A DNA stretch of 64,000 nucleotides from Candidatus Sericytochromatia bacterium (GCA_036676495.1 JAKFCT010000010.1:32001-96000), one strand, 5' to 3'. Shown: positions 7,317-40,396, numbered from the stretch's first letter. Notes: generated by a model from the sequence alone, not told the origin. Translations and numbers: made by a program.

Positions 7317-7394
7317 CCCGCACCTCCGATTGCTCCGGGATCGCCGGCGCCATTGTGGCGGAAGGAGGCCCGCTCCGCAAGGCTTCCTTTGCCG

Positions 7395-24507: not shown

Positions 24508-25914
24508 CTAGGGGCGATCGTCCCCCGCCGCATCACGCGGGACCACGCGTTCCGCCCCCAACGCAGCAAGCTCGGGAGCAGCCGCCGGGATGGCCGCATC
24601 GAGGGCAATCTCGGGCGCCCGGCGCCGGATCGTGATCGCGTAACAGACCGAGGCCACCCCCAGGGTCAGGGTCACCCAGAGGATGGTCAGCGGGTTGGCG
24701 ATGAGGCTTCCGACCACGCTCCAGCCCACGCCCAGCAGGTAGACGGCAAGGGCGGCCAGCCGCCATCCCGTGATGCCCCCACCCTTGATCTTGAGGATCG
24801 CGCTCGCGCTCAAGGCCCCGAAGATGGCCAGGGTGACGCCCACGCCATTGAGCATGGCCTCGAACGTGTTCGAGAGCAGCATGAGGACGGCCACGCCCAC
24901 GAGCAGGCCGACGGGCCCCACGCCCCCCATACGGCCCGTGGTCCATTTCGCCCAGGAAGGAAGAAAGCGATCGCGGGCCATGGCGTCGCAGATCCAGGGG
25001 CCACTCATGGTCATGGCGATGATGCTCGAGACCAGGATCAGGAAGATCATCGCGGAGGCCAGGCGTCCGCCGATCTCTCCGAGCAAGCGCACCGCCACCA
25101 GGTGACCGAGGGTGATGGACCCGCCCTCGGACTGGGTCGCCAGTTGCAGCTCTTGGGGCGAGAGGGTCGTGACGAAGACGAAATTCAAAAGCAGGTACAT
25201 GAGCGTCACCGCTCCCACGCCCAGCAGCATGGCCCGGGGAACGTTGCGGACGGGATTCTCCACCTGCGAGGCGAGGTAAACCGCGGCACTCCAGCCGGCG
25301 AAGGCGAAACCGACGTAGATCTGGGCGGTGGCGAACGGCAGGCTCATGATGGCGTTCAGGGTCTGCGAGGTCGGCAAGGCGCGCATCGGCTCGCTGATCC
25401 CCGAGAAGAAGGCTCCGCCCAGGAAGACCAAGATGATGCCGAGCTTGAGCACGAACCCGATGTTCTGGACGATCTCTCCCCACTTCAGTCCCGCGGCCTG
25501 CACGGCCCCGAGCCCGAGCAGCACGAAAAGCGCGACGGGCATGGCGATGGACCGCCCCGTCAGCACCTCGGCGTACGCGCCGGCCGCGAGAGCGGCCATG
25601 GCCATGGGCCCCGCGAAGGCGAAGATGAGGGAGACCCAGCCCGCCACGTAACCGGCCAAGGGATGGAAGAGATCATGCAGGTAGCGGTACTCGCCGCCGT
25701 TCAGGGGGATGCGTTGCGCCACCGCGGAATAGCACAGCGCCCCCGCCGCGGCCAAGAGACCTCCGAGCAGCCAGCTCAGGAGGATGGCCGCCGGATCGAG
25801 GTCACTGGCCAGGAACCCGCTGGTGACGAAGACCCCGCTGCCGATCATCGAGGAGATGACCAGTCCCGTGGCACTGAAGAGTCCGAGAGGCTTGGCGAGA
25901 CGGGCTGTGGACAT
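24508..25914 (-). CDS. APC-family amino acid permease (copy 1)
   Basis: MIGSGVF, GGEYRYL, FAFAGW, NPVRNVPRA. Confidence 0.9.
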   Translation of the reverse strand: MSTARLAKPLGLFSATGLVISSMIGSGVFVTSGFLASDLDPAAILLSWLLGGLLAAAGALCYSAVAQRIPLNGGEYRYLHDLFHPLAGYVAGWVSLIFAFAGPMAMAALAAGAYAEVLTGRSIAMPVALFVLLGLGAVQAAGLKWGEIVQNIGFVLKLGIILVFLGGAFFSGISEPMRALPTSQTLNAIMSLPFATAQIYVGFAFAGWSAAVYLASQVENPVRNVPRAMLLGVGAVTLMYLLLNFVFVTTLSPQELQLATQSEGGSITLGHLVAVRLLGEIGGRLASAMIFLILVSSIIAMTMSGPWICDAMARDRFLPSWAKWTTGRMGGVGPVGLLVGVAVLMLLSNTFEAMLNGVGVTLAIFGALSASAILKIKGGGITGWRLAALAVYLLGVGWSVVGSLIANPLTILWVTLTLGVASVCYAITIRRRAPEIALDAAIPAAAPELAALGAERVVPRDAAGDDRP

Positions 25915-26064
25915 TCAGTCCCCTTTCAAAACAACGACAAAACCCTTGGTTACTCCATCCTAATGCAGAAAACCACGCTTGGGAGTCACTTCGCGCAGAA
26001 ATTCATCCCTAGAACAGGATTCCGCGCCGGCAAGACGTGCTCGACACGGCGATGAGCGGCGGGA

Positions 26065-29383: not shown

Positions 29384-30736
29384 TTAAACGTCGGCGGTCG
29401 TGGAGAGCGTGGGATCGTGGGGAACGACTTCAGTGGCGCGGCGCCAGCGGGCCGTGGCGAAGTATGCGATCGTGGCCGCGCCCAGGGTCAGGACGGTCCA
29501 GAGAAGCGCCATCGGAAAGGCGATGAGGCTTCCGATCACGCTCCAGATCACTCCCAGCAAGTTGACGACCAGGGCCAGTAGGATCCCCTTCGAGATCGCC
29601 TTTCCCTTGATCTTAAGGACCGCGCTGGAGCTCAAGGCGCCAAAGAGGGCCAGGGTGACGCCCACGGCGTTCAGCATGACCTCGAAGGTGTTGGAGAGCA
29701 GCAGGATCACGGCCATCCCCGCGAGCAGCCCGACAGGGCCCGCACCGCCCCAGCGACCCTCGCGCCAACGCGCCCAGGACGGGAGGTAGCGATCACGGGC
29801 CATGGCGTCAGCGATCCAGGGTCCGGCCATGGCCATGGCAATGATGACCGAGACCAGGATCAGGAAGATCATGCCAGACGCCAGGCGGCCGCCGAAATCG
29901 CCCAGCAGGCGCAAAGCGACGAGGTGGCCGAGCGTGAGGGCTCCGCCTTCGGACTGCGTGGCGTGCTGCAGCTCCGCGGGCGAGAGGGCGGTCACGAAGA
30001 CGAAATTCAAGAGCATGTACATGAGCGTGACGGAGCCAAGCCCGAGAAACATCGCACGAGGAACGTTCTTGACGGGGTCCTTCACCTGGGAGGCGAGATA
30101 GACCGTCATACTCCAGCCCGTGAAGGCGAAGCCGACGTAGTTCTGCGCGGTGGCAAAGGGAACGCTCGTGATCGCACTGAGGGTCTGAAGCGTGGGCAGG
30201 GCGCGCGAGGGCTCCGTGATGCCCGAGAACAACGCTCCTGCGAGGAAAACTAGGATGATCCCGAGCTTGAGCAAGACCCCGATATTCTGGACGAGTTCCC
30301 CCCACTTGAGCCCGCCGGCCTGAACCGCACTAACGGCCAGTAGGACGAGCAGGCCGATGGGCATGGCGATCGCCCGGCCCGTGAGCACCTCGGCATAAGC
30401 ACCGGCGGCCACGGCGGCCAAGGCCATGGGAGCGGCAAAGCCGAAGATCAGGATGATCCAGCCTGCCAGGTAACCGGCAATGGGGTGGTAGAGGTCGTGG
30501 AGGTAGCGGTACTCTCCGCCACTCTGGGGGAGGTGGGCAGCGACCGCAGAGTAGCAAATGGCTCCGCAGGCGGCCAGGAGGCCTCCCAGCAGCCAACTCA
30601 AGAGAATGGCGGCGGGATCGAGGTCATGGGCCAGGAAGCCGCTGGTGATGAAGACTCCGCTGCCTATCATCGACGAGATGACCAGTCCGGTGGCACTGAA
30701 CAGTCCAAGCGGCGCGGTGAGACGGGCGGTGGACAT
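29384..30736 (-). CDS. APC-family amino acid permease (copy 2)
   Basis: Close paralogue of 24508-25914 (MSTARL..PLGLFSATGLVISSMIGSGVF). Confidence 0.9.
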   Translation of the reverse strand: MSTARLTAPLGLFSATGLVISSMIGSGVFITSGFLAHDLDPAAILLSWLLGGLLAACGAICYSAVAAHLPQSGGEYRYLHDLYHPIAGYLAGWIILIFGFAAPMALAAVAAGAYAEVLTGRAIAMPIGLLVLLAVSAVQAGGLKWGELVQNIGVLLKLGIILVFLAGALFSGITEPSRALPTLQTLSAITSVPFATAQNYVGFAFTGWSMTVYLASQVKDPVKNVPRAMFLGLGSVTLMYMLLNFVFVTALSPAELQHATQSEGGALTLGHLVALRLLGDFGGRLASGMIFLILVSVIIAMAMAGPWIADAMARDRYLPSWARWREGRWGGAGPVGLLAGMAVILLLSNTFEVMLNAVGVTLALFGALSSSAVLKIKGKAISKGILLALVVNLLGVIWSVIGSLIAFPMALLWTVLTLGAATIAYFATARWRRATEVVPHDPTLSTTADV

Positions 30737-30876
30737 TCAGCCCCCTTTCAAAACAGCATCGAAATCACGGTATTCCCCAATCCTAGAGCACGAACGCCTG
30801 GCTATGCCACTAACAGGGGGAAATATGGCGGTTGTTTTCGCAGCCTTGTTAGGTTTTAAAAGCCTCCGGCCGAGAC

Positions 30877-30980
30877 CTTCGACGGCTCGCAAAACAAAGC
30901 TGACGGGATGCAAGTTGCGCACGTCAGGTAAAGTGCCCTTGAGGGGATGCCAATCGATCTTTCTTCACCAAGCTATGCGA
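30877..30980. repeat. Most decayed att-like copy (hairpin, tRNA 3' fragment, element arm); distal island boundary
   Basis: CTTCGAC...CTGACGGGATGCAAGTTGCGCACGTCAG...GTGCCCTTGAGGGGAT; 30946-30980 matches 35481-35515 at 22/35 ungapped (hand count). Confidence 0.65.
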
Positions 30981-31164
30981 TCGAGAGAGCATTGGTAGGT
31001 GTTCCTTGGCCCGAAGAGCTGAAGCGAGTGCATTTGTAAGCTGGAAAACCAACGGGTCCTGTATGATAGGGGAGCCTCGTAACGCGGCGCAGTTTGAGCC
31101 TCGCCTCTCTCCTTGCTCGCGGGGTGAGCCAACGTGTCATGCTCTCATAACAAGGAGTCCGCAG

Positions 31165-32055
31165 GTGTCAAAATTGCGCTTCAAGCTAGCAGGATCTATC
31201 CTCCTGGCTTGCCTGCTCTTCCTGGCAGGATGGGCATTCTGGTTTGAGCCCCGTGTCCTTGTAGCCAGAGAAGCGGCTCTCGACGTGCCACGCTGGAACC
31301 CCGCCCATGAGGGGCTCCGTGTTGCACTCTTGGCAGACCTCCATATCGGCTCCCCACAACATGGCATTGCGAAGTTGCGCGAGATCGTCGCCCGAGTGAA
31401 CCAGGCAGAGCCCGATGTCATTCTGCTTCTGGGCGATTTCGTCATTCAAGGCGTGAGAGGCGGAACTTTCGTCCCCCCTGAGGAAGCAGCAGTCGAGCTC
31501 TCCAAGCTTCGAGCCCCGTACGGGAAATTTGGGGTCTTGGGCAACCACGATTGGTGGTTGGACGGCCCAAGAGTCGCCGCGGCGCTCGAGAGCGCAGGCG
31601 TCACGATGCTGGAGAACACCTCCACGAAGCTGACCATAAACGGTCAACCGCTGTGGCTTGCTGGTGTCAGCGACTACGTCGCAAGCCAACCCGACTTGAA
31701 TTCAGCTCTCAGAGGGATCCCTGAGGATCACCCCGTCCTCTTGCTGAGCCACAATCCGGATTTTTTCCCGCACGTTCCTCAGCGGGTTTCCCTCACGGTC
31801 TCGGGGCATACCCATGGCGGCCAAGTCAATCTGCCGTTCATTGGTCGGCCCGTCGTTCCTTCCGCATTCGGCGAACGCTTTGCAGCTGGCCATGTCGTGG
31901 AGAACGGCCGACATCTCTACGTGTCTACCGGAACCGGAACCAGTATCTTGCCTGGTCGGTTCCGAGTGCCGCCAGAATGGGGGGTGCTGACGCTTCGCCC
32001 CCTTGGACAGGTTCAATCCACCAAACCGTCTTCATCGGCGAGAATCGTCCGGTAG
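31165..32055 (+). CDS. Calcineurin-like metallophosphoesterase (YkuE/YaeI-like)
   Basis: DLH, GDF, GNHD, SHNPD, GHTHGGQ; N-terminal TM; AAGGAG then GTG. Confidence 0.9.
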   Translation: MSKLRFKLAGSILLACLLFLAGWAFWFEPRVLVAREAALDVPRWNPAHEGLRVALLADLHIGSPQHGIAKLREIVARVNQAEPDVILLLGDFVIQGVRGGTFVPPEEAAVELSKLRAPYGKFGVLGNHDWWLDGPRVAAALESAGVTMLENTSTKLTINGQPLWLAGVSDYVASQPDLNSALRGIPEDHPVLLLSHNPDFFPHVPQRVSLTVSGHTHGGQVNLPFIGRPVVPSAFGERFAAGHVVENGRHLYVSTGTGTSILPGRFRVPPEWGVLTLRPLGQVQSTKPSSSARIVR

Positions 32056-32096
32056 CGGATCTAATCATGTAGGCCGAAACGATGTGCTTTAGATAA

Positions 32097-32155
32097 CTTC
32101 GACCTAAGCACTACTGACACGATAGTTCCTCTAACCTCTTAACCACGTTAACCGA
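32097..32155. repeat. Partial att-like copy (arm only, hairpin lost)
   Basis: CTTCGAC...GATAGT...CTTAACCACGTTAACCGA versus GATAGT...CTTAACCATGTTAACCGA at 35481; same spacing, last 18 nt match 17/18. Confidence 0.65.
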
Positions 32156-32354
32156 GAAGGTCATCAGGTCCACACCGTGACGCTCGCGAGCAATAAAAGA
32201 AAATATCCCGAAACCTACAAGAAAATATCAAAAAAGAACTGAGTCACATCGGGTATAAGGTCAACTAGACGATTGGCAGCAGACATGCTCGTTCCTGGAG
32301 CGTGTCAAAAGCTATGCGCCGTTTCTCGACATATTCTACTAAGAGATCAAGCAA

Positions 32355-32801
32355 TTGAAGAATTGTAGCGAACCATGCACCTTCTGCCAGATCATTAACA
32401 AAGAAGCGCCAGCGAGTCTCGTCTTTGAAGATGAAGACATCATTTCATTCCTAGATTTGGCCCCCGTAAACGCTGGACATCTCTTAGTGCTGCCGAAGCA
32501 GCATGCGTTTTCTTTGTCAGACTTGGATGAGCGTATTAGCCTTCGTGTATTCGAGATAGCGCTGCAGTTGTCGAGAGTACTTCGAGATTCCGAGCAGGAC
32601 TGGGAGGGGATGAACCTACATCTCGCGGAAGGGGAAGCTGCCGAGCAAGGTATTCCTCACGCCCATTTGCACGTGATCCCACGTAGACAGGGGGATGCGG
32701 TCAAAATCCATCTACCGTGTCTGCGGTCGCCTAAACGCGAAGAGCTCGACTCGCTCGCCTCACGTTTACGCCAAGGGCATCAAGTCATGAGGAATCGCTA
32801 G
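32355..32801 (+). CDS. HIT-family nucleotide hydrolase
   Basis: CTFCQI, GHLLVLPKQH, HAHLHVIPR. Confidence 0.9.
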   Translation: MKNCSEPCTFCQIINKEAPASLVFEDEDIISFLDLAPVNAGHLLVLPKQHAFSLSDLDERISLRVFEIALQLSRVLRDSEQDWEGMNLHLAEGEAAEQGIPHAHLHVIPRRQGDAVKIHLPCLRSPKREELDSLASRLRQGHQVMRNR

Positions 32802-32836
32802 AGACGAGCAAGTTCGCATTTGTGAGGAGGACTACA

Positions 32837-33487
32837 TTGAAAAGTATTCGTTCCATCCTACTTGCTGGTGCGATCTGCAGCTTGATCCAAGGCCCAGCCC
32901 TGGCCTACGAGCTGGTATTCGATGTCGATTCGCGTTACAACAACCTTGCTCGGGTAGCAAGTGCCTCAAAGGTGGTGGAGCTTGCCGTTACGAACCCTTA
33001 TCATCCGGAGGCTCTGCTGAAGTCCTCGGGGCGTTTCCAGTATACTTTCACCCCGATGGTGCCGGTTCAGGACCAAGACAACGGCGTCACGATGACGCGC
33101 CATGGCCAGATCTTTAAAATTACTCCGCTGGACGCCGAGGGAAGACCTATTGGACTTGGCTCGACCTCCGTGAGCGTGGTTCCTCGCCAAGTCTTCAACG
33201 GCGCTACGGTCAAGAGCTTGCTAACACCTGCGAGTGGCCTCGTGGCATCGGCGTTGGCTGGCTACTACTCAGGAAGCCAGCTTTCCCCAAATGCCACGGC
33301 CGGAGCGAACATGGTTAATGCAACGGCGCTCGTGGCTTCGGTGCTAAGCTTGGTAGCCCATGGGATGACTACCTGGGAGATAATTACCGCCAGTTACCAG
33401 TATGACGAACGCTACGTCTTCGAAGCCAGACCCAGCCAAGATCAGGCTAGTGGCATAAGGTTCACGCGGCGGCTGAGCAGCAACTAG
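32837..33487 (+). CDS. Hypothetical exported/membrane protein
   Basis: AGGAGG then TTG; signal peptide (GPALA); C-terminal hydrophobic segments. Confidence 0.65.
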   Translation: MKSIRSILLAGAICSLIQGPALAYELVFDVDSRYNNLARVASASKVVELAVTNPYHPEALLKSSGRFQYTFTPMVPVQDQDNGVTMTRHGQIFKITPLDAEGRPIGLGSTSVSVVPRQVFNGATVKSLLTPASGLVASALAGYYSGSQLSPNATAGANMVNATALVASVLSLVAHGMTTWEIITASYQYDERYVFEARPSQDQASGIRFTRRLSSN

Positions 33488-33496
33488 GAGGTTCAC

Positions 33497-33655
33497 ATGC
33501 ATGGCACTGGTAAGAAACCGGACGTAGAGGGCGGCTGCATGGGCACTTTTGCCCTGCAAGAATGTAATGGTTGCGGCCACGATAATTGTGTGAACGCCAG
33601 TTGGAAAACGTGGACCTGTTGGTCATGCAACCATCATAACCACATCGGCCGTTGA
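33497..33655 (+). CDS. Small zinc-ribbon-like protein (52 aa, below the ORF-track cutoff)
   Basis: GGAGG RBS; MHGTGKKPDVEGGCMGTFALQECNGCGHDNCVNASWKTWTCWSCNHHNHIGR. Confidence 0.6.
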   Translation: MHGTGKKPDVEGGCMGTFALQECNGCGHDNCVNASWKTWTCWSCNHHNHIGR

Positions 33656-33792
33656 ATTTCCTTTGAACCGCTCCTCAAGGAACCTAACCCCACAGGAGTT
33701 CAGCCGAAAGACCAATTACATGGAGTGAGACAGAAGCTTTAGGCGACTCTATTACTGGTGTCAGGTCAGGCCTATAATAGACAATGAATATA

Positions 33793-35217
33793 CTAAGAGT
33801 TCGTACCGGGGAGCGTTAGAATTTTCATTGGTTCCCTCACTTGCCCAGTTTCGTCTACCAGCGAGTAGGGTTCTTTCTTCTTTACCTTGCCTAACACTTC
33901 CACAAGCGCCTGAGAGTAGCGCCCATTATGGTTCCCATTTAGGCCAACATCAAGATGGTACTTATTATTACCGAATTTAACATCGAAGCCCGTATCTAAC
34001 TTCACCTGCTTAATCAGCCGATCAACGTGGTACCAGCTTTTGTATCCTAATTTTTTTCCTACATCGCTGAGAGAGTAAGGATAGAGCAAGGCAATAGCAT
34101 CGGGGTCGGAAACAGTACCAAACCCTAGCACGTTCATAAGATTGCTTTCCGTCGATGAGGAGTCAAGAGTCGCAATGTTTACTGAAAGACTTGCGTTTGC
34201 CGATTTGTTCTTAACAATATCATAGATATTAGTCATCAAGTTCCTAAGATAACGAACGTCGATTTGTTTAACTGCTACTGGTTGCGATATGGTCTCGAAT
34301 AGTGCTCCAAAACTGTCAACCAAAAGGTAGTTTACCCTAATTGAGCGGCCATCACCAAGATCAATAACTTTCTCACTAGGTGGTCTTTTACTCTGATCAA
34401 ACGAGCTCTGCCAATCGACAAACCAAATATTTCCGACCAAGTCGCCTGACTCACCTGGGACCATCTCCGCGATATCAGACAGTATTTCCTTGATATTCAT
34501 ATCTGAAACGGAATATCCCATAATTATTAACGGGAATTCAATGAAATAGGTCAAGAGTTTTGCAGTGAGATACTTCTTCTTCCTCATGAATTCTTGGTAG
34601 TCTTCGTGAGATATCACTAGTGACTCTGGTTCCGAAGCACATCCATGAACCTTAAGGATTTCGCCAATTGCCTCAAAAACTGGCTTTCGAATAATTTTCT
34701 GACCAATAATAGGATTGAAGAAGGGAAAGACCTTTTCCATTAGACCATCGTAATTAGTTGTAATCACAGCATGGGGTTCGACCTTTGACAGAAGTTTGAG
34801 TTCGACAGAGGTCGGCGTATCAGTAAGATCAAGATTGACCTTCTCGGTCAGGCTAGTAAACAATGACGCAATCTTATGCTTTAGAAAAATACCTTTGGAA
34901 TAAGTTCCCGTATAAAGGTAGTCAGGGAACAACCCACTGCCGTGCTGTTCCCAGGCATAGGTCTGGTAACCATCCTCAAGTAATGACGCAACCTTTGGAA
35001 GATCGTGGTCGGCCCTTTGCGAATAAAATCCAAACGGCATATCAAGCTTAGGGTTCTCTGAAACTAGATACTCCAGCAATTCAGGCCAAGATGGTGCCTG
35101 TAGATACCTTTTGGATAGGCCTGCGCCTACAAAGAGAATCGGTCGGCAGCCCATCTCTTGAATAACGGATCGCAGATGGAGAAGAGAATCTCTTAAATAG
35201 TCGTCATAAATTTTCAT
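33793..35217 (-). CDS. SIR2-like (SIR2_2) domain protein, candidate anti-phage NADase
   Basis: FVGAGLS..PSW, ITTNYD, LKVHG, GYSVSD.NI; AT-rich. Confidence 0.85.
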   Translation of the reverse strand: MKIYDDYLRDSLLHLRSVIQEMGCRPILFVGAGLSKRYLQAPSWPELLEYLVSENPKLDMPFGFYSQRADHDLPKVASLLEDGYQTYAWEQHGSGLFPDYLYTGTYSKGIFLKHKIASLFTSLTEKVNLDLTDTPTSVELKLLSKVEPHAVITTNYDGLMEKVFPFFNPIIGQKIIRKPVFEAIGEILKVHGCASEPESLVISHEDYQEFMRKKKYLTAKLLTYFIEFPLIIMGYSVSDMNIKEILSDIAEMVPGESGDLVGNIWFVDWQSSFDQSKRPPSEKVIDLGDGRSIRVNYLLVDSFGALFETISQPVAVKQIDVRYLRNLMTNIYDIVKNKSANASLSVNIATLDSSSTESNLMNVLGFGTVSDPDAIALLYPYSLSDVGKKLGYKSWYHVDRLIKQVKLDTGFDVKFGNNKYHLDVGLNGNHNGRYSQALVEVLGKVKKKEPYSLVDETGQVREPMKILTLPGTNS

Positions 35218-35413
35218 AACTGCTCCAAAATAATGAAGACTTGCTTGCCTTGTACATTCATAGCGCTACGACCTATTTAGGTCAAATGACTGATAGAATT
35301 ATTGCCTGACGCATGCACCCTAATCTACGGTATCTACTCGTTTCGCGGCGTTTATGGGTAATTGTCGAACCGACTTGCTCTCCTGGAAAGTCCACGTCTC
35401 TCCAAATAGAGGC

Positions 35414-35515
35414 CTTCGACAGCAAAGCAAAACCGGCGTGATGCAATGTGCATCACGCCGGTTTTGAGTACCCCTTACGGGATAGTCTTCAAACTTACTT
35501 AACCATGTTAACCGA
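35414..35515. repeat. att-like direct repeat: terminator hairpin, tRNA-Glu 3' fragment, element arm
   Basis: CAGCAAAGCAAAACCGGCGTGATGCAATGTGCATCACGCCGGTTTTGAGTACCCCTTACGGGAT closely matches 37344-37406. Confidence 0.85.
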
Positions 35516-35624
35516 CTTAGAGTCCCTTTGCGATCTCTAACGTGTAAGCAAATAGCGGGGCAAGGTCACCCTCGATAGTTTGAAAACCTGGATCAAGGCC
35601 ATAGGAGCTATAATCGAGACATAG

Positions 35625-37214
35625 TTGCCACGTCAAACGCCGGATCGGAGGGACGCGTTGTCTGAGGATGTTGAAACCCAAGGCACGACCTGGTGTGAGT
35701 GTTGCCGTTCGCCCATGAACGAGGGCATACAGACCGAACATGGCTTTGTGTGCTCGGTCCAATGTCTCAACACCGAACGAATCTGCGGTTCCATCCTCGA
35801 AAAGGCTCTAACTACCGGTTCGGCCTCCACCGCCATTCCAGGTTCAGTGAACAACTATGGGGATACCGTGGTCTTCGGTCCCGAACGCGGCCATGGAATT
35901 GCGGCAGAGCGAGCCAACCATTTCGTCGACGTTCTTAAAGGGCGAGACGCCAGTCACGTTGGCGGAGACAATGCCAAGAACGGTCCAGATCGCTTGGTAA
36001 ACGGTATCAATATCCAAAGTAAGTATTGCCACTCTGGTTCAAAATGCATTGCCGAATGCTTCGATGAAAAGGGCGCATTTCGCTATCGCAACGTCGATGG
36101 CAGCCCAATGCAAATCGAGGTTCCATCGAACTACTACGAGGATGCTGTTAAAGCTTTAGAGAATCGAATTCGCCGAGGCCAGGTCCCCGGTGTAACCGAT
36201 CCAGCAAAAGCCAAGGAGATCATTCGAAAGGGCGCGCTGACCTATCAACAGGCACGGAACGTCGCCAAGTTTTGCACGGTCGAATCACTCACCTACGACG
36301 CTATCACGGGGATCCAGGTAGCCGGCACAGCCTGTACGGTGACGGTTGCCATTTCATTTGCGCACGCCCTGTGGAACGGCGAAGACTGGAACGCCGCCGT
36401 CAAGCTTGCGGCTTCGTCAGGGCTCAAGGTCGGTGGCGCGGCATGGCTTACCAGCATCATTTCCGCTCAGCTAGCCAGAACCGGAGTGGAGGGGGCGATG
36501 CGCCCGGCCACCGATTTCATGGTCAAGAAGCTCGGTGCAAAGACCGCGGCTCAGCTGGCGAATGCCCTGCGGAACGGGAGTACGATTCATGGTGCCGCCG
36601 CCATGAATCACCTCTCCAAGGTGTTTCGCGGGAATATAGTTACCGGGCTAGTGACAACTGTGGTGCTCTCATCTGCGGACATTTCTCGCATGGTTCGAGG
36701 CCGGATCTCTGGACTCCAAGCCTTTAAGAACATTACGACGACGGCAGTCGGCGTCGCAGGCGGAACTGGAGGATGGATGGCCGGCGCTGCCGCTGGGGCA
36801 GCGCTCGGATCGGTGGTTCCCATCATTGGCACAGCGGCTGGCGGACTGGTGGGCGGATTGTTCGGCGCATTTGCAGGAGGCTCTCTGGGGAGTTCAGGAA
36901 CCAAGGCCATCCTCGATTGCTTTATTGAAGATGATGCCAAGCAAATGGCTGAACGCTTCGAATCAGAGTTGGTCCTTCAAGTTGAGGAATTCATGCTCAA
37001 TGAGGGGGAAATAGCCCGTCTACTTGAGCAAGTGGATAAGATTGACTTCGGAAAGGAACTTCAGAATATATACGCGTCCAGCAGCCGCAAGGCCTACCTG
37101 GTTCATCTTATCAAGCCACTCGTCGTCAGCGTCGTGGCCGAGCGCGGTTCGATCGCTCTCCCGAACGAAGATCAGCTATTGGATAGCATCAGCGACCTTG
37201 TAGAAACCCCCTGA
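35625..37214 (+). CDS. Putative PD-(D/E/Q)xK-like domain plus glycine-zipper membrane protein (possibly YeeR-like); start uncertain
   Basis: AAERAN...PDRLVNG..IQSKY; long GxxxG-rich hydrophobic region; N-terminal CxxC...CSxxC. Confidence 0.6.
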   Translation: MPRQTPDRRDALSEDVETQGTTWCECCRSPMNEGIQTEHGFVCSVQCLNTERICGSILEKALTTGSASTAIPGSVNNYGDTVVFGPERGHGIAAERANHFVDVLKGRDASHVGGDNAKNGPDRLVNGINIQSKYCHSGSKCIAECFDEKGAFRYRNVDGSPMQIEVPSNYYEDAVKALENRIRRGQVPGVTDPAKAKEIIRKGALTYQQARNVAKFCTVESLTYDAITGIQVAGTACTVTVAISFAHALWNGEDWNAAVKLAASSGLKVGGAAWLTSIISAQLARTGVEGAMRPATDFMVKKLGAKTAAQLANALRNGSTIHGAAAMNHLSKVFRGNIVTGLVTTVVLSSADISRMVRGRISGLQAFKNITTTAVGVAGGTGGWMAGAAAGAALGSVVPIIGTAAGGLVGGLFGAFAGGSLGSSGTKAILDCFIEDDAKQMAERFESELVLQVEEFMLNEGEIARLLEQVDKIDFGKELQNIYASSSRKAYLVHLIKPLVVSVVAERGSIALPNEDQLLDSISDLVETP

Positions 37215-37291
37215 CCAATCCTTGCCGAGTGTATTTTCTCTGATTTTCAGAACGGGCAATGAGTCCTACACTTCACCTGGACGGCCGCGTC

Positions 37292-37332
37292 TGACCTGCC
37301 CCCGAAAACTCCTCCAACCCGCATTAGAAGCT
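37292..37332 (-). mobile_element. Orphan IS3-family (IS407-group-like) terminal inverted repeat
   Basis: TGACCTGCCCCCGAAAACTCCTCCA resembles IS407-group ends; no transposase nearby. Confidence 0.45.
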
Positions 37333-37352
37333 CTCAAGCCGATCAGCAAAGT

Positions 37353-37388
37353 AAAACCGACGTGATGCAAGTTGCATCACGTCGGCTT
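37353..37388 (-). terminator. Intrinsic terminator of tRNA-Glu
   Basis: CCGACGTGATGCAA-g-TTGCATCACGTCGG stem with a T-tract on the minus strand. Confidence 0.8.
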
Positions 37389-37391
37389 GAG

Positions 37392-37464
37392 TACCCGATA
37401 CGGGATTCGAACCCGTGTTACCGCCGTGAGAGGGCGGCGTCCTAGGCCTCTAGACGAATCGGGC
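37392..37464 (-). tRNA. tRNA-Glu (CTC), CCA not encoded
   Basis: GCCCGATTCGTCTAGAGGCCTAGGACGCCGCCCTCTCACGGCGGTAACACGGGTTCGAATCCCGTATCGGGTA folds as a cloverleaf. Confidence 0.95.
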
Positions 37465-37606: not shown

Positions 37607-40396
37607 ATGGTGCAAGTGGCGGATGCCGGTGGAACGCGGCCCGTAAACCCTACGGCCGCAACCATTTCTGCTGCGGCCAACGCTCCGGCTCCTCAGGCGG
37701 CCGCAACCCCGGAGGCTGCCGCGCAGCCCCGGATGTCCAGTGATACCTTCGAAGGTATCCCCGAGACCCTCAAGATCAAGTCCGGGGACACCCTGGGCAG
37801 CCTGGTCGCCAAGTACCAGGTGACTTACGACCAGCTCAAAGAGCTGAACCCCGAAATCTTCAAAGAAGGCACCGACGCCAAGGGCCGCAAGCGCGCAAGC
37901 GACGGACACTGGATCTATCCCGGCGACGTCATTCGCCTGCGGACGGCCTCCGCCCCCAAGCCCGCAACCCCTCCGGCCACGGCTCCCGCCACGACTCCGA
38001 CGGCCACCGCCACGACCGCCAACGGGAAGGTCGTCGAGGCCGCCAAGTCCGCCATCAACGAGGCAGCGATCATCCCCTCGACGGCTTCCAACGGCCGCGA
38101 GCTCTCCCAGCAGGTCTTGAGCAAGGCCCAGGAGATGCTCAAGCTGATCCCCGCGAGCGATCCGGCCCGGGGCCAGTTCGAAGGCAAGGTCAGCCGACTC
38201 GAGCGGGAATTCAAGGCCATTTACCCGCCTCCCGCCAGCGCGCAGGAGCGCTTCGACACGGCCAACGAGGGCTTCAACCAGGCCGTCCAGAACTACTACG
38301 ACGCGTCCGGCAAGGCCGCCCAGGGCGAGTCCCGCGATCAGGCGATTCGCTACTTCAGCGAAGCCCGGGACGCCGCCCGTGAGCTGACCTCGGACGATGC
38401 CAAGCTGGAAGCCGGCGAGCGGCTCGAAATGATGGAGTTCGCCCTCACGGACATGGGCGTCAACGCCTCGGCGATCGCCCTGGCCCGCGGCGAGGGAACG
38501 GACGCGACTCCGAGCGCCGCCGCCCCCGAGCCGACGTTCGCCGAGCGCGACAAGAACCAGGACGGCTACCTCTCAGGCAACGAGCTCGATGCGAAGGCCC
38601 GCTCCTTCGATGCCGACGGCAACCAGCGCGTCACCCGCGAAGAGTGGGAGATGGGCCAGATGGCCGAGCGCGAAGTCGAGTGGAAGCGCGAGTTCAAGCA
38701 GGCCGACGCCAACCAGGACGGCTGGCTCTCGGGATCCGAGGCGGCTTCCTTCAGCGCCCACGACGCCAACGGAGACTTCGAGGTCACCGAGCAGGAGTAC
38801 CTCAACGCCAAGCGCGCCCAGGTGATGAACGGCGTCTACGATCAGGACTTCGCCGCGCGGGATAAGAACCAGGACTCCTACCTGTCGGGCAACGAGCTCG
38901 ACGCAGCGACCCGCGCCTTCGACACCAACATGGACGGTCGGGTCACCCGCGAGGAGTACATGGCCGCCAAGTCGGGCGCCATGCCGGCGGGAAGCGCTCC
39001 CATGACCGCGACGCCCGTCGGCCAGATGCCGGGGGCGACCGTGCCTGCCGCCGGAATTCCGCAGCCGCAGCCGACGGCTCCCTCCAACCCGCTGGAGGCC
39101 TTCGAGGGCGCGAGCGCTCGCTTCAACGACGCGGCGACCCGCAACGACGTGCTCACCATGACCACGGCCTACCAGGACGCGGCCTACGCCATCGCCTACA
39201 TGCCGACCGGCGCCGAGCGTGACACGCTGGCCGCACAACTGGAGATCATGGGCTTCACGCTCCAGCAGGCCTACGCCGCCACGGGTACCCCCGTCGCCGC
39301 CGGCGGCAGCGTGACCGGCCTGACGGCCCAGCCCCTCACCCCCGGCGTGCAGGTTCCTGTCACTCCTGCCGCCATCCCGGGTCAAGCCGGTTACCCGGCC
39401 ACCGCTTACCAGGCGGCTGGCTACCCGGCAGCGGGCTATCCCGCCGGCGCCTATCCTGCCGGTGCCTACCCCGTCCAGCCCGGCGCGCCCATGGCTCCGG
39501 CGGCGTATCCGCAGGCCGGTTATCCCGTCACGGCGACGGGCGTCCCTCAGGCGGCCGTGGTGCCTCCGGCGGCTCCTGCCGCTCCGGCCGAGCCTCCGCG
39601 CCAGACCTACACCCAGGTCTGGTCCAGCCCCGACTACCTTGCCGAGGCCATGGGCTACAACAAGCCGGCTCCCGCGTCGCCCAACGGCAATCAATCGGCG
39701 CAAGGCACCACTCCTCCGGGAACTGACGCCACCCAGGGCACCCAGACTCCGAACGGAGCCAATGGCCAGCCTCCGGTGAACGAACAGGCGGTCCGGGAGA
39801 TCGATGCCTTCCTCCAGCGCTCGGACGCCAACGCCGTCCGCGACATGCTGGCCAGCCGCCCCGAGTTGCTCTACGACTCGCTGCCGCGCCAGAAGGCCGC
39901 CATGCTTCGCCTGCTGGTCGAGGGACGGACGGATGCGGGCGATCGCTCCGCCATCGTCAACATCCTCGACATGGCCGCCAAGACCGAGCAAGTGGACACC
40001 ATGCTCAACGAGCTCGACGGCCTCTACGGCGGTGCCGGCAAGGGCATCAAGCGCATGTTCGAGGACCTCGACCAGGCCACCAAGGGTGCGGCGCTCAAGG
40101 CGATGTTCACCCCCTCGCTCATGCAGTACCGCAAGTACGATCCCGCGGCCTTCGACGCGGTGGTCGGCGCCATGACCAAGGACGACATCAAGCTCCTGAT
40201 GGAGTCCATGGGCTACGGAGTCTCGTCCCCCTGGATGAGCGTCTTCTCGCCCCAGGCCCGCCAGATGATGATGGACAAGCTGGGCAGCGGCTTCAACCTC
40301 TTCGGGCTCTTCGGAGGCACCGAGAAGCAGATGATCGCGGCCTTGCAGCAATCCGCCGTCGCCTACACCCCGCAGGTCCAGCCCCCGGCCAAGTAA
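37607..40396 (+). CDS. Large LysM + multi-EF-hand protein with Pro/Ala/Tyr-rich repeats
   Basis: IKSGDTLG..L.ELNP..IYPGD.IRL (LysM); six DxNxDG-type loops; AGYP repeats. Confidence 0.85.
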   Translation: MVQVADAGGTRPVNPTAATISAAANAPAPQAAATPEAAAQPRMSSDTFEGIPETLKIKSGDTLGSLVAKYQVTYDQLKELNPEIFKEGTDAKGRKRASDGHWIYPGDVIRLRTASAPKPATPPATAPATTPTATATTANGKVVEAAKSAINEAAIIPSTASNGRELSQQVLSKAQEMLKLIPASDPARGQFEGKVSRLEREFKAIYPPPASAQERFDTANEGFNQAVQNYYDASGKAAQGESRDQAIRYFSEARDAARELTSDDAKLEAGERLEMMEFALTDMGVNASAIALARGEGTDATPSAAAPEPTFAERDKNQDGYLSGNELDAKARSFDADGNQRVTREEWEMGQMAEREVEWKREFKQADANQDGWLSGSEAASFSAHDANGDFEVTEQEYLNAKRAQVMNGVYDQDFAARDKNQDSYLSGNELDAATRAFDTNMDGRVTREEYMAAKSGAMPAGSAPMTATPVGQMPGATVPAAGIPQPQPTAPSNPLEAFEGASARFNDAATRNDVLTMTTAYQDAAYAIAYMPTGAERDTLAAQLEIMGFTLQQAYAATGTPVAAGGSVTGLTAQPLTPGVQVPVTPAAIPGQAGYPATAYQAAGYPAAGYPAGAYPAGAYPVQPGAPMAPAAYPQAGYPVTATGVPQAAVVPPAAPAAPAEPPRQTYTQVWSSPDYLAEAMGYNKPAPASPNGNQSAQGTTPPGTDATQGTQTPNGANGQPPVNEQAVREIDAFLQRSDANAVRDMLASRPELLYDSLPRQKAAMLRLLVEGRTDAGDRSAIVNILDMAAKTEQVDTMLNELDGLYGGAGKGIKRMFEDLDQATKGAALKAMFTPSLMQYRKYDPAAFDAVVGAMTKDDIKLLMESMGYGVSSPWMSVFSPQARQMMMDKLGSGFNLFGLFGGTEKQMIAALQQSAVAYTPQVQPPAK

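What the first reader, a model, noticed from the sequence alone, without database searches (positions are those of the whole stretch)
30877..37464. Integrase-less cassette array at tRNA-Glu: four decaying att-like repeats separate cargo islets
Seen: the tRNA 3' end plus terminator (37344-37406) recurs at 35420-35483 with a compensatory A-T to G-C pair change in the hairpin, and more decayed at ~30885-30948. Homology to the tRNA stops at the T-loop (TACGGGAT). A 35-nt non-tRNA arm follows at 35481, 32121 and 30946, and CTTCGAC precedes these three copies. The repeats define three islets: metallophosphoesterase; HIT + exported protein + Zn ribbon + SIR2; putative nuclease-membrane protein. No recombinase is present. 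Known: T-loop integration with restoration of the tRNA 3' end is typical of integrative elements. Inference: repeated integrations by one element family, or in-trans cassette capture, have built an integron-like accessory/defence array. The distal full copy is more decayed than the proximal one.
Basis: partly seen in the sequence, partly recalled or inferred. Interest (0 to 1): 0.75.

Follow-up and report, generated by a model that had tools for sequence, protein, structure and literature searches.

The report
Integrase-less gene islets behind tRNA-Glu
Three small blocks of foreign genes sit in a row behind a tRNA-Glu gene, separated by copies of one recombination-site-like repeat and carrying no recombinase gene; this resembles known tandem island arrays, except that no recombinase has been found for the family.

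Summary
Behind tRNA-Glu(CTC) (37391-37464, minus strand) lie three low-GC islets (1.1-3.2 kb). A composite repeat separates them: an arm of up to about 105 nt ending in a degenerate copy of the tRNA T-loop-to-3' end, then a terminator-like hairpin and about 60 nt of conserved flank.

Pairwise similarity beats every shuffle (z 7.8-28.9). A profile built only from copies outside the window finds exactly the three predicted sites.

The organism is a Candidatus Sericytochromatia MAG. The same junction family bounds islets behind tRNA-Glu(CTC) genes or remnants at five further places: another contig of this bin, two genus mates and one metagenome contig.

None of the 10 junction-bounded islets holds a recombinase domain. 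The same genomes keep integrases in ordinary islands at tRNA-Asn and tRNA-Ser.

All junction copies share a 5-nt insertion and a two-base change that the real tRNA lacks. They therefore come from the element, not from displaced host tRNA ends, and the crossover lies at or after GGGTAC.

Best reading (about 0.5): serial site-specific integration of small cassettes mobilised in trans. This is a variant of the CIME and Dehalococcoides ssrA-island arrays. No integrase, circular form or excision was seen.

The parts
37391..37464 (-). tRNA-Glu(CTC), intact. It is the anchor of the array.
   Evidence: ARAGORN; Rfam tRNA at 59 bits
37354..37388 (.). Hairpin T1 (class 1), directly after the tRNA 3' end. 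It looks like a two-way terminator.
   Evidence: 17-nt arms, 94% complementary (I8); compensatory changes among 7 copies
37292..37353 (-). Conserved flank of about 60 nt after the hairpin. Homology between copies ends here.
   Evidence: Alignment of 7 class-1 units; match to C94 over 37292-37412
35625..37214 (+). Islet A cargo: a 529-aa YeeR-like membrane protein.
   Evidence: No Pfam, NCBIfam or PADLOC hit at threshold; atlas features 0.98 to YeeR_C clusters; pieces 98-99.5% identical in runs X2 and X3
35466..35570 (-). Junction J35: an arm of about 85 nt plus a degenerate tRNA T-loop-to-3' end (core 35466-35483).
   Evidence: E 4.8e-15 with the outside profile; extended alignment
35428..35466 (.). 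Hairpin T2 (class 1).
   Evidence: 18-nt arms, 100% complementary (I3); terminator-like in the scan
35360..35427 (-). Flank after hairpin T2, partly homologous to the T1 flank. It contains CCTTCGAC.
33793..35217 (-). Islet B cargo: a SIR2_2 protein, a candidate single-gene defence protein (PADLOC PDC-S25). GC is 0.40-0.46.
   Evidence: Pfam PF13289 E 3.6e-23; PDC-S25 E 3.7e-85; GC
33497..33655 (+). Islet B cargo: a 52-aa Cys-rich ORF with no family hit.
32822..33487 (+). Islet B cargo: a 221-aa protein that looks exported, with no family hit at threshold.
32355..32801 (+). Islet B cargo: a HIT-family hydrolase.
   Evidence: PF01230 E 1.8e-18; weak ThsC-model similarity, E 5e-13
32121..32180 (-). 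Junction J32: arm only. The tRNA-like core and the hairpin are lost.
   Evidence: 94% identical 18-mer shared with J35; z 9.6; E 0.011 with the outside profile
31165..32055 (+). Islet C cargo: a metallophosphoesterase (YaeI/LpxG-like, below the family cut-offs). The likely start is GTG at 31165.
   Evidence: PF00149 E 2.1e-11; NCBIfam hits below cut-off
30932..30998 (-). Junction J30: decayed arm plus degenerate tRNA end.
   Evidence: E 6.2e-5 with the outside profile
30887..30931 (.). Hairpin T3 (class 1, decayed), then a short flank with CCTTCGAC at 30876-30883.
   Evidence: 60% identical to T2; z 11 against the proximal unit; included in the pair counts
29384..30736 (-). Amino-acid permease. 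This is the chromosomal side of the array. It is 85.5% identical to the permease on the related contig C73.
   Evidence: Pfam; blastn
37607..40396 (+). EF-hand/LysM protein. This conserved chromosomal neighbour upstream of the tRNA was used to find the same locus elsewhere.
   Evidence: Pfam; syntenic in C73, G001 and three metagenome contigs

Best explanation
The stretch 30877-37390 is a tandem array of three small genomic islets with no integrase. They have accreted at the 3' boundary of tRNA-Glu(CTC) by repeated site-specific integration of members of one element family, found almost only in this genus.

Each element brings a terminator-like hairpin plus about 60 nt of conserved flank at its end near the tRNA. 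At its far end it brings an arm of up to about 105 nt that ends in a degenerate mimic of the tRNA T-loop-to-3' end. An internal junction (arm + mimic + hairpin + flank, about 200 nt) therefore looks like an attP site.

The crossover lies at or just after GGGTAC, the last bases of the tRNA, so the tRNA is never broken. Newer elements push older ones away from the tRNA.

The recombinase is not encoded in the islets. I infer that it acts in trans, from a helper element or host gene that is missing from these MAGs.

Shown: the repeats, their register, the boundaries, the lack of recombinase genes, and differences in islet content between relatives.

Inferred: site-specific recombination, the crossover position, and supply of the recombinase in trans.
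For: 1. The repeats are significant and family-specific.

2. Eleven junction copies align in register. Three are in the window and two on contig C59 of the same bin. G001:C43, G002:C93 and G002:C116 hold one each, and metagenome contig L103 holds two. A weak one sits at a tRNA-Val on C96.

3. Junction copies carry a 5-nt insertion after TTCGAA that the tRNA lacks. Most also read AAGGGG where the tRNA has ATCGGG. They are therefore copies of one another, not decayed host tRNA ends.

4. With-and-without comparisons break at GGGTAC. On C59 the order is tRNA | hairpin 3 + APH-like gene. In G002:C116 it is junction | hairpin 3 + APH-like gene, and identity is mostly 86-100% per 50-column block (74% in the lowest) from the T-loop motif onward. 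The 3.1-kb G002:C116 array is absent from the orthologous GAF-DAGK gap on G000:C33 (about 170 nt), which itself holds a ...GGGTAC motif.

5. The same tRNA-Glu(TTC)/tRNA-Glu(CTC) tandem locus carries three different hairpin classes in three genomes. This fits hairpins that arrive with elements.

6. None of the 10 junction-bounded islets gave a recombinase domain in the ORFs scanned, and no recombinase family hits contig C10. The same genomes keep integrases next to tRNA-Asn (G000:C67) and tRNA-Ser (G002:C116).

7. Pieces of islet A, including its junction arm, occur at 98-99.5% identity in contigs of two other studies, X2 and X3. Those runs show no cover on islets B and C except in one bin.

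8. The total conserved unit of about 200 nt matches the usual size of a tyrosine-integrase attP with arm sites. That size is recalled knowledge, not a test.
Against: - No recombinase with this specificity was found. It is absent from the bin, from G001 and G002, from 27 genomes of the order, and from viral contigs (1 chance hit), phages and plasmids.
- The two large serine recombinases of G000 have no close orthologue in G001 or G002 (33% identity or less).
- No circular form or excision joint was seen. The runs are kept as contigs only. The two joints at the repeats are explained otherwise.
- The crossover position is inferred, not observed.
- The hairpin plus flank next to the tRNA is also shared with C73, which has no junction repeat. 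It could therefore be ancestral chromosome rather than element-borne.
- Junction subtype does not co-vary with hairpin class under either pairing (permutation p 0.56 and 0.53).
- Some gene-content differences lie beyond the last detectable junction (window, C73 and L103 compared).
- All the genomes are MAGs, and the bin holds a second related population.
Confidence: 0.5

Rival explanations
1. Ordinary decay. Each islet is the stump of a once larger tRNA-integrated island, ICE or IME that carried its own integrase. Internal deletions removed the integration genes and left attL- and attR-like ends (CIME formation). Later arrivals then stacked in front.
For: This pathway is the standard account of such tandems (passage in PMC5704250). 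Decay is visible here: J32 has lost its core and hairpin, and J30 and T3 are eroded. There are pseudo-tRNA remnants at C94 and G002:C116.
Against: None of the 10 junction-bounded islets keeps an integrase domain. Several tiny islets keep both conserved ends. Islet A, for example, is 1.85 kb with one gene, the hairpin and flank, and the full arm. No larger relative with an integrase was found in any collection searched. The same genomes do retain integrases in islands at other tRNAs.
Confidence: 0.22
2. Shuffling by homologous recombination. The unit of about 200 nt is only portable homology. Islets are swapped between tRNA-Glu loci and between strains by general recombination, for example after DNA uptake, with no dedicated site-specific recombinase.
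For: - The homology is long, and it extends past the tRNA through the hairpin and 60 nt of flank.
- The same hairpin-and-flank classes occur at different loci.
- Whole blocks, including a tRNA remnant, sit at non-tRNA sites.
- No recombinase was found.
Against: Copies are only 60-90% identical, which makes them poor substrates for general recombination. The boundary at GGGTAC is sharp, and a GGGTAC-like motif sits at the empty secondary site. The arm is conserved although only one side of it could serve as flanking homology.
Confidence: 0.13
3. Single-strand (HUH, IS200/IS605-like) or other transposition. The elements have a hairpin at one end and a small CCC-GNRA-GGG hairpin at the other, and insert 3' of a fixed short target (GGGTAC).
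For: The left end starts with a long hairpin right after a fixed target word, and the right end finishes with the same word. One Y1 transposase gene exists in the bin, on C48.
Against: The two end hairpins are unlike each other. Insertions are confined to tRNA-Glu-like sites plus a few secondary sites, rather than spread over the many GGGTAC words of a genome. The Y2 search found nothing, but its control rang nowhere. The only rve-family hit is on C69.
Confidence: 0.04

Closest known systems
Dehalococcoides ssrA-specific genomic islands (PMC3146451; passages read)
   Same: Several tandem islands lie downstream of one tRNA-like gene. They are separated by direct repeats of its 3' end, with a conserved motif just upstream of each repeat that does not match the gene. 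Homology breaks in the T-loop. There, 15 islands lack an integration module and were proposed to be cis-mobilizable elements.
   Different: There, 16 islands carry a six-gene integration module with the serine recombinase DsiB. Here 0 of 10 carry any recombinase. There the repeat is 20 bp. Here the unit is about 200 nt, includes a hairpin and flank, and its tRNA-like part is a degenerate mimic. The islets here are much smaller (0.75-9 kb, mostly one to five genes).
CIMEs and site-specific accretion (Pavlovic 2004 and Bellanger 2011, as summarised in PMC5704250; one passage and the reference list read)
   Same: The elements are flanked by att sites, lack integration and transfer genes, are stacked in tandem at the 3' end of a tRNA gene, and are thought to be movable only with help.
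   Different: CIMEs are defined as decay products of a known ICE or IME with the same att sites. Here no parent or helper element is known, and all members seen lack the genes.
Integrons and CALINs (attC clusters without an integrase); recalled, no paper read here
   Same: Arrays of short, mostly single-gene cassettes separated by structured repeats whose stem is kept by compensatory change. The array itself holds no recombinase.
   Different: There is no intI or attI, and the anchor is a tRNA gene. The hairpins are perfect stems with T runs, not imperfect attC with extrahelical bases. Cassette orientation is mixed. The repeat also has a long non-palindromic arm.
SCC composite islands and pseudo-SCC elements at rlmH, and pdif modules in Acinetobacter plasmids; recalled, no paper read here
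   Same: Modules without a recombinase are bounded by repeated recombination sites and are moved in trans by CcrAB or XerCD.
   Different: The target sites and recombinases differ. Here the recombinase is unknown.

Membership tests
Classical tRNA-integrated genomic island (tyrosine integrase) | Lies directly 3' of a tRNA gene | tested here: met
   The array starts at the tRNA-Glu(CTC) 3' end, 37391
Classical tRNA-integrated genomic island (tyrosine integrase) | Direct repeat of the tRNA 3' part at the far boundary | tested here: met
   Copies at 35466-35483 and 30932-30948. They are a degenerate mimic shared by all copies.
Classical tRNA-integrated genomic island (tyrosine integrase) | Integrase gene inside the island | tested here: not met
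   No recombinase domain in the 6 window ORFs. PF00589, PF00239, PF01797 and PF00665 do not hit contig C10.
Classical tRNA-integrated genomic island (tyrosine integrase) | Atypical composition and presence/absence between relatives | tested here: met
   GC 0.40-0.62 against 0.62-0.70 in the flanks. Content differs at the same locus in C73, G001 and L103.
Cis-mobilizable element (CIME) | Flanked by attL- and attR-type sites and lacking integration and transfer genes | tested here: met
Cis-mobilizable element (CIME) | Derived from, or sharing att sites with, a known ICE or IME that encodes the integrase | tested here: not met
   No such element in the bin, in 27 genomes of the order, or in genome, metagenome, viral, phage and plasmid collections
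Cis-mobilizable element (CIME) | Excision or transfer when a helper is present | not testable with these tools
   Only contigs of the runs were available. No excision joint was seen.
Integron / CALIN | intI integrase with attI (integron), or at least two attC sites (CALIN) | tested here: not met
   No PF00589 hit on the contig
Integron / CALIN | attC structure (imperfect palindrome, conserved boxes, extrahelical bases) | not testable with these tools
   No attC model was at hand. Rfam gave only the tRNA. The hairpins are perfect stems of 16-18 pairs followed by T runs, unlike what I recall of attC.
Integron / CALIN | Cassettes all in one orientation | tested here: not met
   In the window 5 of 6 cargo ORFs are on the + strand and SIR2 is on the - strand. 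Orientation is also mixed in L103 and G002:C116.
Dehalococcoides-type ssrA-GI array | Tandem islands separated by repeats of the gene's 3' end, each with an adjacent conserved motif | tested here: met
   Compared with passages of PMC3146451.
Dehalococcoides-type ssrA-GI array | Integration module with a CcrB-like serine recombinase in many members | tested here: not met
   0 of 10 islets. The serine recombinases of the bin lie on C20, C104 and C22 and have no close orthologue in G001 or G002.

The most novel reading that the evidence does not exclude
A cassette system anchored at a tRNA gene, which works like an integron but is unrelated to it. Small circles of one or a few genes each carry a junction of about 200 nt (arm + tRNA-end mimic + hairpin + flank). 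A dedicated recombinase encoded elsewhere in the cell, or on a helper not captured in MAGs, inserts them one after another at the last bases of tRNA-Glu(CTC), and occasionally at look-alike sites. This builds exchangeable accessory and defence arrays in Sericytochromatia.
Probability: 0.2. Interest if true: 0.75.

Novelty: new variant of a known kind. Interest (0 to 1): 0.5.

Why it matters
Tandem islands at tRNA genes and integrase-less CIMEs are known. A whole family in which every member seen is a mini-cassette without a recombinase, yet has long, well-kept att-like ends, would point to trans-mobilised gene cassettes outside the integron world.

It would also give a concrete recombination site, the junction of about 200 nt plus GGGTAC, with which to search for the missing recombinase.

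The family sits in Sericytochromatia, the little-studied non-photosynthetic relatives of Cyanobacteria. Its cargo includes defence and toxin-antitoxin candidates: a SIR2 protein (PDC-S25), HipA and HigBA.

If it turns out to be mere decay, it is an ordinary integration hot spot.

Tried and rejected
- **Arm as a diverged tRNA part.** I tested whether the arm is a diverged copy of the tRNA from the anticodon loop onward. In 7 of 8 arms the alignment to the tRNA 5' part was no better than shuffles. Rejected.
- **Co-variation of junction subtype and hairpin class.** I tested the hairpin at the left end of the same islet, and the hairpin that follows the junction. There was no signal either way (p 0.56 and 0.53). 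By eye the 5-nt block seemed to track the left hairpin class, but I do not rely on that.
- **att-like sequence near the bin's recombinase genes** (C20, C104, C22, C67, C48). Only chance-level short matches were found.
- **Large serine recombinases of G000 as a conserved genus integrase.** There is no close orthologue in G001 or G002.
- **Pattern scans.** Genome contigs gave 86 hits, but by their titles only the three Sericytochromatia contigs belong to this family; the others were not opened. Metagenome contigs gave 0 hits for the arm-plus-core pattern. Viral contigs gave 1 hit with no arm or hairpin. Phages and plasmids gave no match.
- **Rfam.** Only the tRNA was found.
- **Laid runs.** The joint 35509 to 37390 in X1 ('between: not known', one contig) is most simply a contig that holds both a tRNA and an arm, such as C59, and not an excision product. 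The joint 35444 to 37374 in X2 (depth 2, 5 letters between) is a hybrid alignment of one hairpin. No circular or empty-site form was seen, and contigs cannot show rare forms.
- **APH gene of G008.** The APH-family gene next to the tRNA-Glu(CTC) of another genus is not an orthologue of the C59 APH-like gene.
- **Frame error.** One search failed on a wrong frame and was corrected.

Full report
**What is there.**
The window is G000:C10:32001-96000 of a 4.1-Mb MAG with 106 contigs, 91.9% completeness and 6.7% contamination. Titles of the genus mates' contigs name them Candidatus Sericytochromatia.

One tRNA gene lies in the window: tRNA-Glu(CTC) at 37391-37464 on the minus strand. From its 3' end down to about 30880, GC drops from 0.62-0.70 to 0.40-0.62.

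Read in the direction of the tRNA, the stretch contains the following, in order:
- hairpin T1 and a conserved flank
- islet A: one 529-aa gene, YeeR-like by atlas features
- junction J35 with hairpin T2
- islet B: SIR2_2/PDC-S25, a 52-aa Cys-rich ORF, a 221-aa protein that looks exported, and a HIT hydrolase
- junction J32, where only the arm is left
- islet C: a YaeI/LpxG-like metallophosphoesterase
- junction J30 with the decayed hairpin T3
- an amino-acid permease

**Are the repeats real?**
Yes.
- The proximal unit and the 35.4-kb unit align at 87-90% identity.
- Against 1000 dinucleotide shuffles the z-scores are 28.9 (proximal vs 35.4k), 11.0 (proximal vs 30.9k), 7.8 (35.4k vs 30.9k) and 9.6 (35.4k vs 32.1k). 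No shuffle reached the observed score in any of these four.
- Two pairs are not significant on their own: 30.9k vs 32.1k and proximal vs 32.1k.
- A profile built only from five junctions outside the window hits the 64-kb window three times, each at a predicted site: E 4.8e-15, 6.2e-5 and 0.011. The last is below the inclusion threshold.
- The hairpin is kept by compensatory change. Among 7 class-1 copies, 4 of 16 pairs change on both sides and 93.6% of cells pair. With partners slid by one to three columns, only 26-41% pair.

**The same junction elsewhere.**
The junction family is not private to the window. Copies align in register at these places:
- C59 of the same bin holds two copies, behind a tRNA-Glu(TTC)/tRNA-Glu(CTC) tandem.
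- G001:C43 is the same locus as the window. Its 9-kb island carries HipA, GSHPx, MarR, pirin and a 1344-aa Sel1 protein.
- G002:C93 is the tandem locus, with a 1289-aa Sel1 islet.
- G002:C116 has a tRNA remnant, then a FapA islet, then a junction, then an APH-like gene.
- Metagenome contig L103 holds two copies. It was found through the conserved EF-hand neighbour, and one of its islets carries HigB/HigA.
- A weak copy (E 0.04-0.2) closes a 2.5-kb low-GC islet behind a tRNA-Val on C96.

The extended alignment shows the arm conserved to about 105 nt from GGGTAC in 5-6 of 11 copies. The flank after the hairpin is conserved for about 60 nt and then homology stops.

In the order (27 genomes, pattern with up to 3 mismatches), all three genomes of the genus match. 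Two other genomes, G013 and G017, give single hits with 3 mismatches each. Both hits are followed by a hairpin.

**What the junction is.**
Junction copies carry five extra bases after the T-loop motif TTCGAA. Most also read AAGGGG where the tRNA reads ATCGGG. Such a 3' end could not pair with the tRNA's 5' acceptor strand.

These copies therefore cannot be successive displaced working ends of the host tRNA, as the classical T-loop model would have it. They are copies of one another, carried by the elements. It follows that the crossover lies 3' of this difference, at GGGTAC or just beyond, and that the tRNA is never interrupted.

Two comparisons agree with this.
- **C59 and G002:C116.** C59 reads tRNA | hairpin 3 + flank + APH-like gene. 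G002:C116 reads junction | hairpin 3 + flank + APH-like gene. Identity is mostly 86-100% per 50-column block (74% in the lowest) from the T-loop motif to 40 nt past the gene.
- **G002:C116 and G000:C33.** The 3.1-kb G002:C116 block is missing from the orthologous GAF-DAGK gap of G000:C33. That gap is about 170 nt long and contains a ...GGGTAC motif.

The same tandem tRNA locus carries three different hairpin classes in three genomes, and one class appears at two different loci. This is expected if hairpin and flank travel with the elements.

One point cuts the other way. C73 shares the class-1 hairpin and flank next to its tRNA but has no junction repeat. That segment may therefore be ancestral chromosome.

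**No recombinase.**
- In the ORFs scanned, none of the 10 junction-bounded islets shows a recombinase domain. Six window ORFs were scanned, 35 ORFs of relatives and 24 more. A few short or overlapping ORFs were left unscanned, and the C96 ORFs (170 aa or less) were not scanned.
- PF00589, PF00239, PF01797 and PF00665 hit other contigs only. The PF04986 search is uninformative because its control rang nowhere.
- This does not look like a general loss in these MAGs. G000:C67 has an integrase beside tRNA-Asn, and G002:C116 has one beside tRNA-Ser, 16 kb from its array.
- No copy of the junction stands near any recombinase gene of the bin. None was found in viral contigs, phages or plasmids.

**Independent occurrence of an islet.**
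Contigs of two other studies hold pieces of islet A at 98-99.5% identity.
- In X2 the pieces are 35698-35875 (2 of 178 letters differ) and 35915-36254 (4 of 340).
- In X3 the pieces are 35467-35741 (4 of 275, starting exactly at the junction core) and 35952-36169 (1 of 218).

Bins over islets B and C are empty or nearly so, except 33676-34009. The chromosomal flanks appear only at about 86-88% identity.

This is weak evidence. Depths are 2-6, 302 pieces were not listed, and contigs drop rare forms. Still, it fits islet A existing apart from islets B and C. The source run has one contig spanning 30125-37419 exactly, so the array is not an assembly join.

**Mechanism and rivals.**
- **Best reading (about 0.5).** Small cassettes bounded by hairpin plus flank on one side and arm plus mimic on the other integrate serially at the tRNA's last bases. 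A recombinase supplied in trans does the work.
- **Decay of ordinary integrase-bearing islands into CIMEs (about 0.22).** This is the textbook route (PMC5704250, one passage). It has to explain why no member anywhere keeps an integrase while tiny islets keep both ends.
- **Shuffling by homologous recombination through the 200-nt unit (about 0.13).** It is not excluded.
- **An HUH-type single-strand mechanism (about 0.04).** I think this unlikely.

**Comparison with what is known.**
The closest described case is the Dehalococcoides ssrA islands (PMC3146451, passages). These are tandem islands separated by 20-bp repeats of the ssrA 3' end, with a 15-bp motif beside each repeat and a break in the T-loop. 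Sixteen carry a DsiB serine-recombinase module and 15 do not.

The present family differs in four ways:
- no member has an integration module
- the junction unit is about 200 nt
- the tRNA-like part is a shared degenerate mimic
- the islets are very small

I rate it a new variant of a known kind. My two literature searches were aimed at analogues. They do not establish that this family is undescribed.

**Caveats.**
- All genomes are MAGs.
- The bin contains a second related population. C73 is about 80% identical and its contigs stand at about half the depth. C59 may belong to that population too.
- Hairpin classes were assigned by eye.
- The crossover position and the trans supply of the recombinase are inferences.

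Noticed in passing
G000:C73 (whole contig, 18.7 kb), against window 13839-41990: C73 is syntenic with the window at about 77-86% identity and has its own tRNA-Glu(CTC). In the source run the matching contigs stand at about half the depth (9-14.5 against 17-19). It is probably a second related population binned into the MAG. The 6.7% contamination fits this.
   Followed up: partly
G000:C96:5820-8480: A tRNA-Val(CAC) is followed by a 2.5-kb low-GC islet of small lipoprotein-like and membrane ORFs. The islet is closed by a weak junction-like copy whose tRNA-Glu-like core is followed at once by its own inverted copy, which makes the hairpin.
   Followed up: partly
G000:C94:4780-7041: A decayed tRNA-Glu-like remnant lies directly after a gene stop downstream of Lon. 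A class-1 hairpin and the conserved flank follow, then a low-GC 692-aa subtilase gene and a multi-copy repeat (C94 about 7354-7606). G001 is homologous only up to that stop codon.
   Followed up: partly
G000:C67:21795-24344 and G002:C116:89078-89883: These are ordinary islands with a tyrosine integrase gene next to tRNA-Asn(GTT) and tRNA-Ser(CGA). C67 holds three tyrosine recombinase genes within 10 kb.
   Followed up: partly
window 24646-25933 and 29468-30755: Two paralogous amino-acid permease genes, 77.6% identical, lie 3.5 kb apart. The copy next to the array is the closer match to the single C73 copy (85.5% against 79%).
   Followed up: no
window 33676-34009: This is the only bin inside islets B and C with cover in runs X2 and X3, and it has extra depth in X1. 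It is the stretch between the 52-aa ORF and the SIR2 gene. Some short sequence there is shared with other organisms.
   Followed up: no
G013:C127:2021-2100 and G017:C160:6330-6417: Single diverged junction-like cores are each followed by a hairpin, in two other families of the order. The flank after the G013 hairpin resembles the class-3 flank of C59. These may be distant members of the family.
   Followed up: partly
G008:C11:373819-374044: Another genus of the family has two tandem tRNA-Glu(CTC) genes 152 nt apart, start to start. Next come an APH-family gene (not orthologous to the one on C59), an alpha/beta hydrolase, AzlC and AsnC. No junction repeats are present.
   Followed up: partly
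window 38537-38645 and 38849-38957: There is an internal direct repeat, 77% identical, inside the EF-hand/LysM gene.
   Followed up: no
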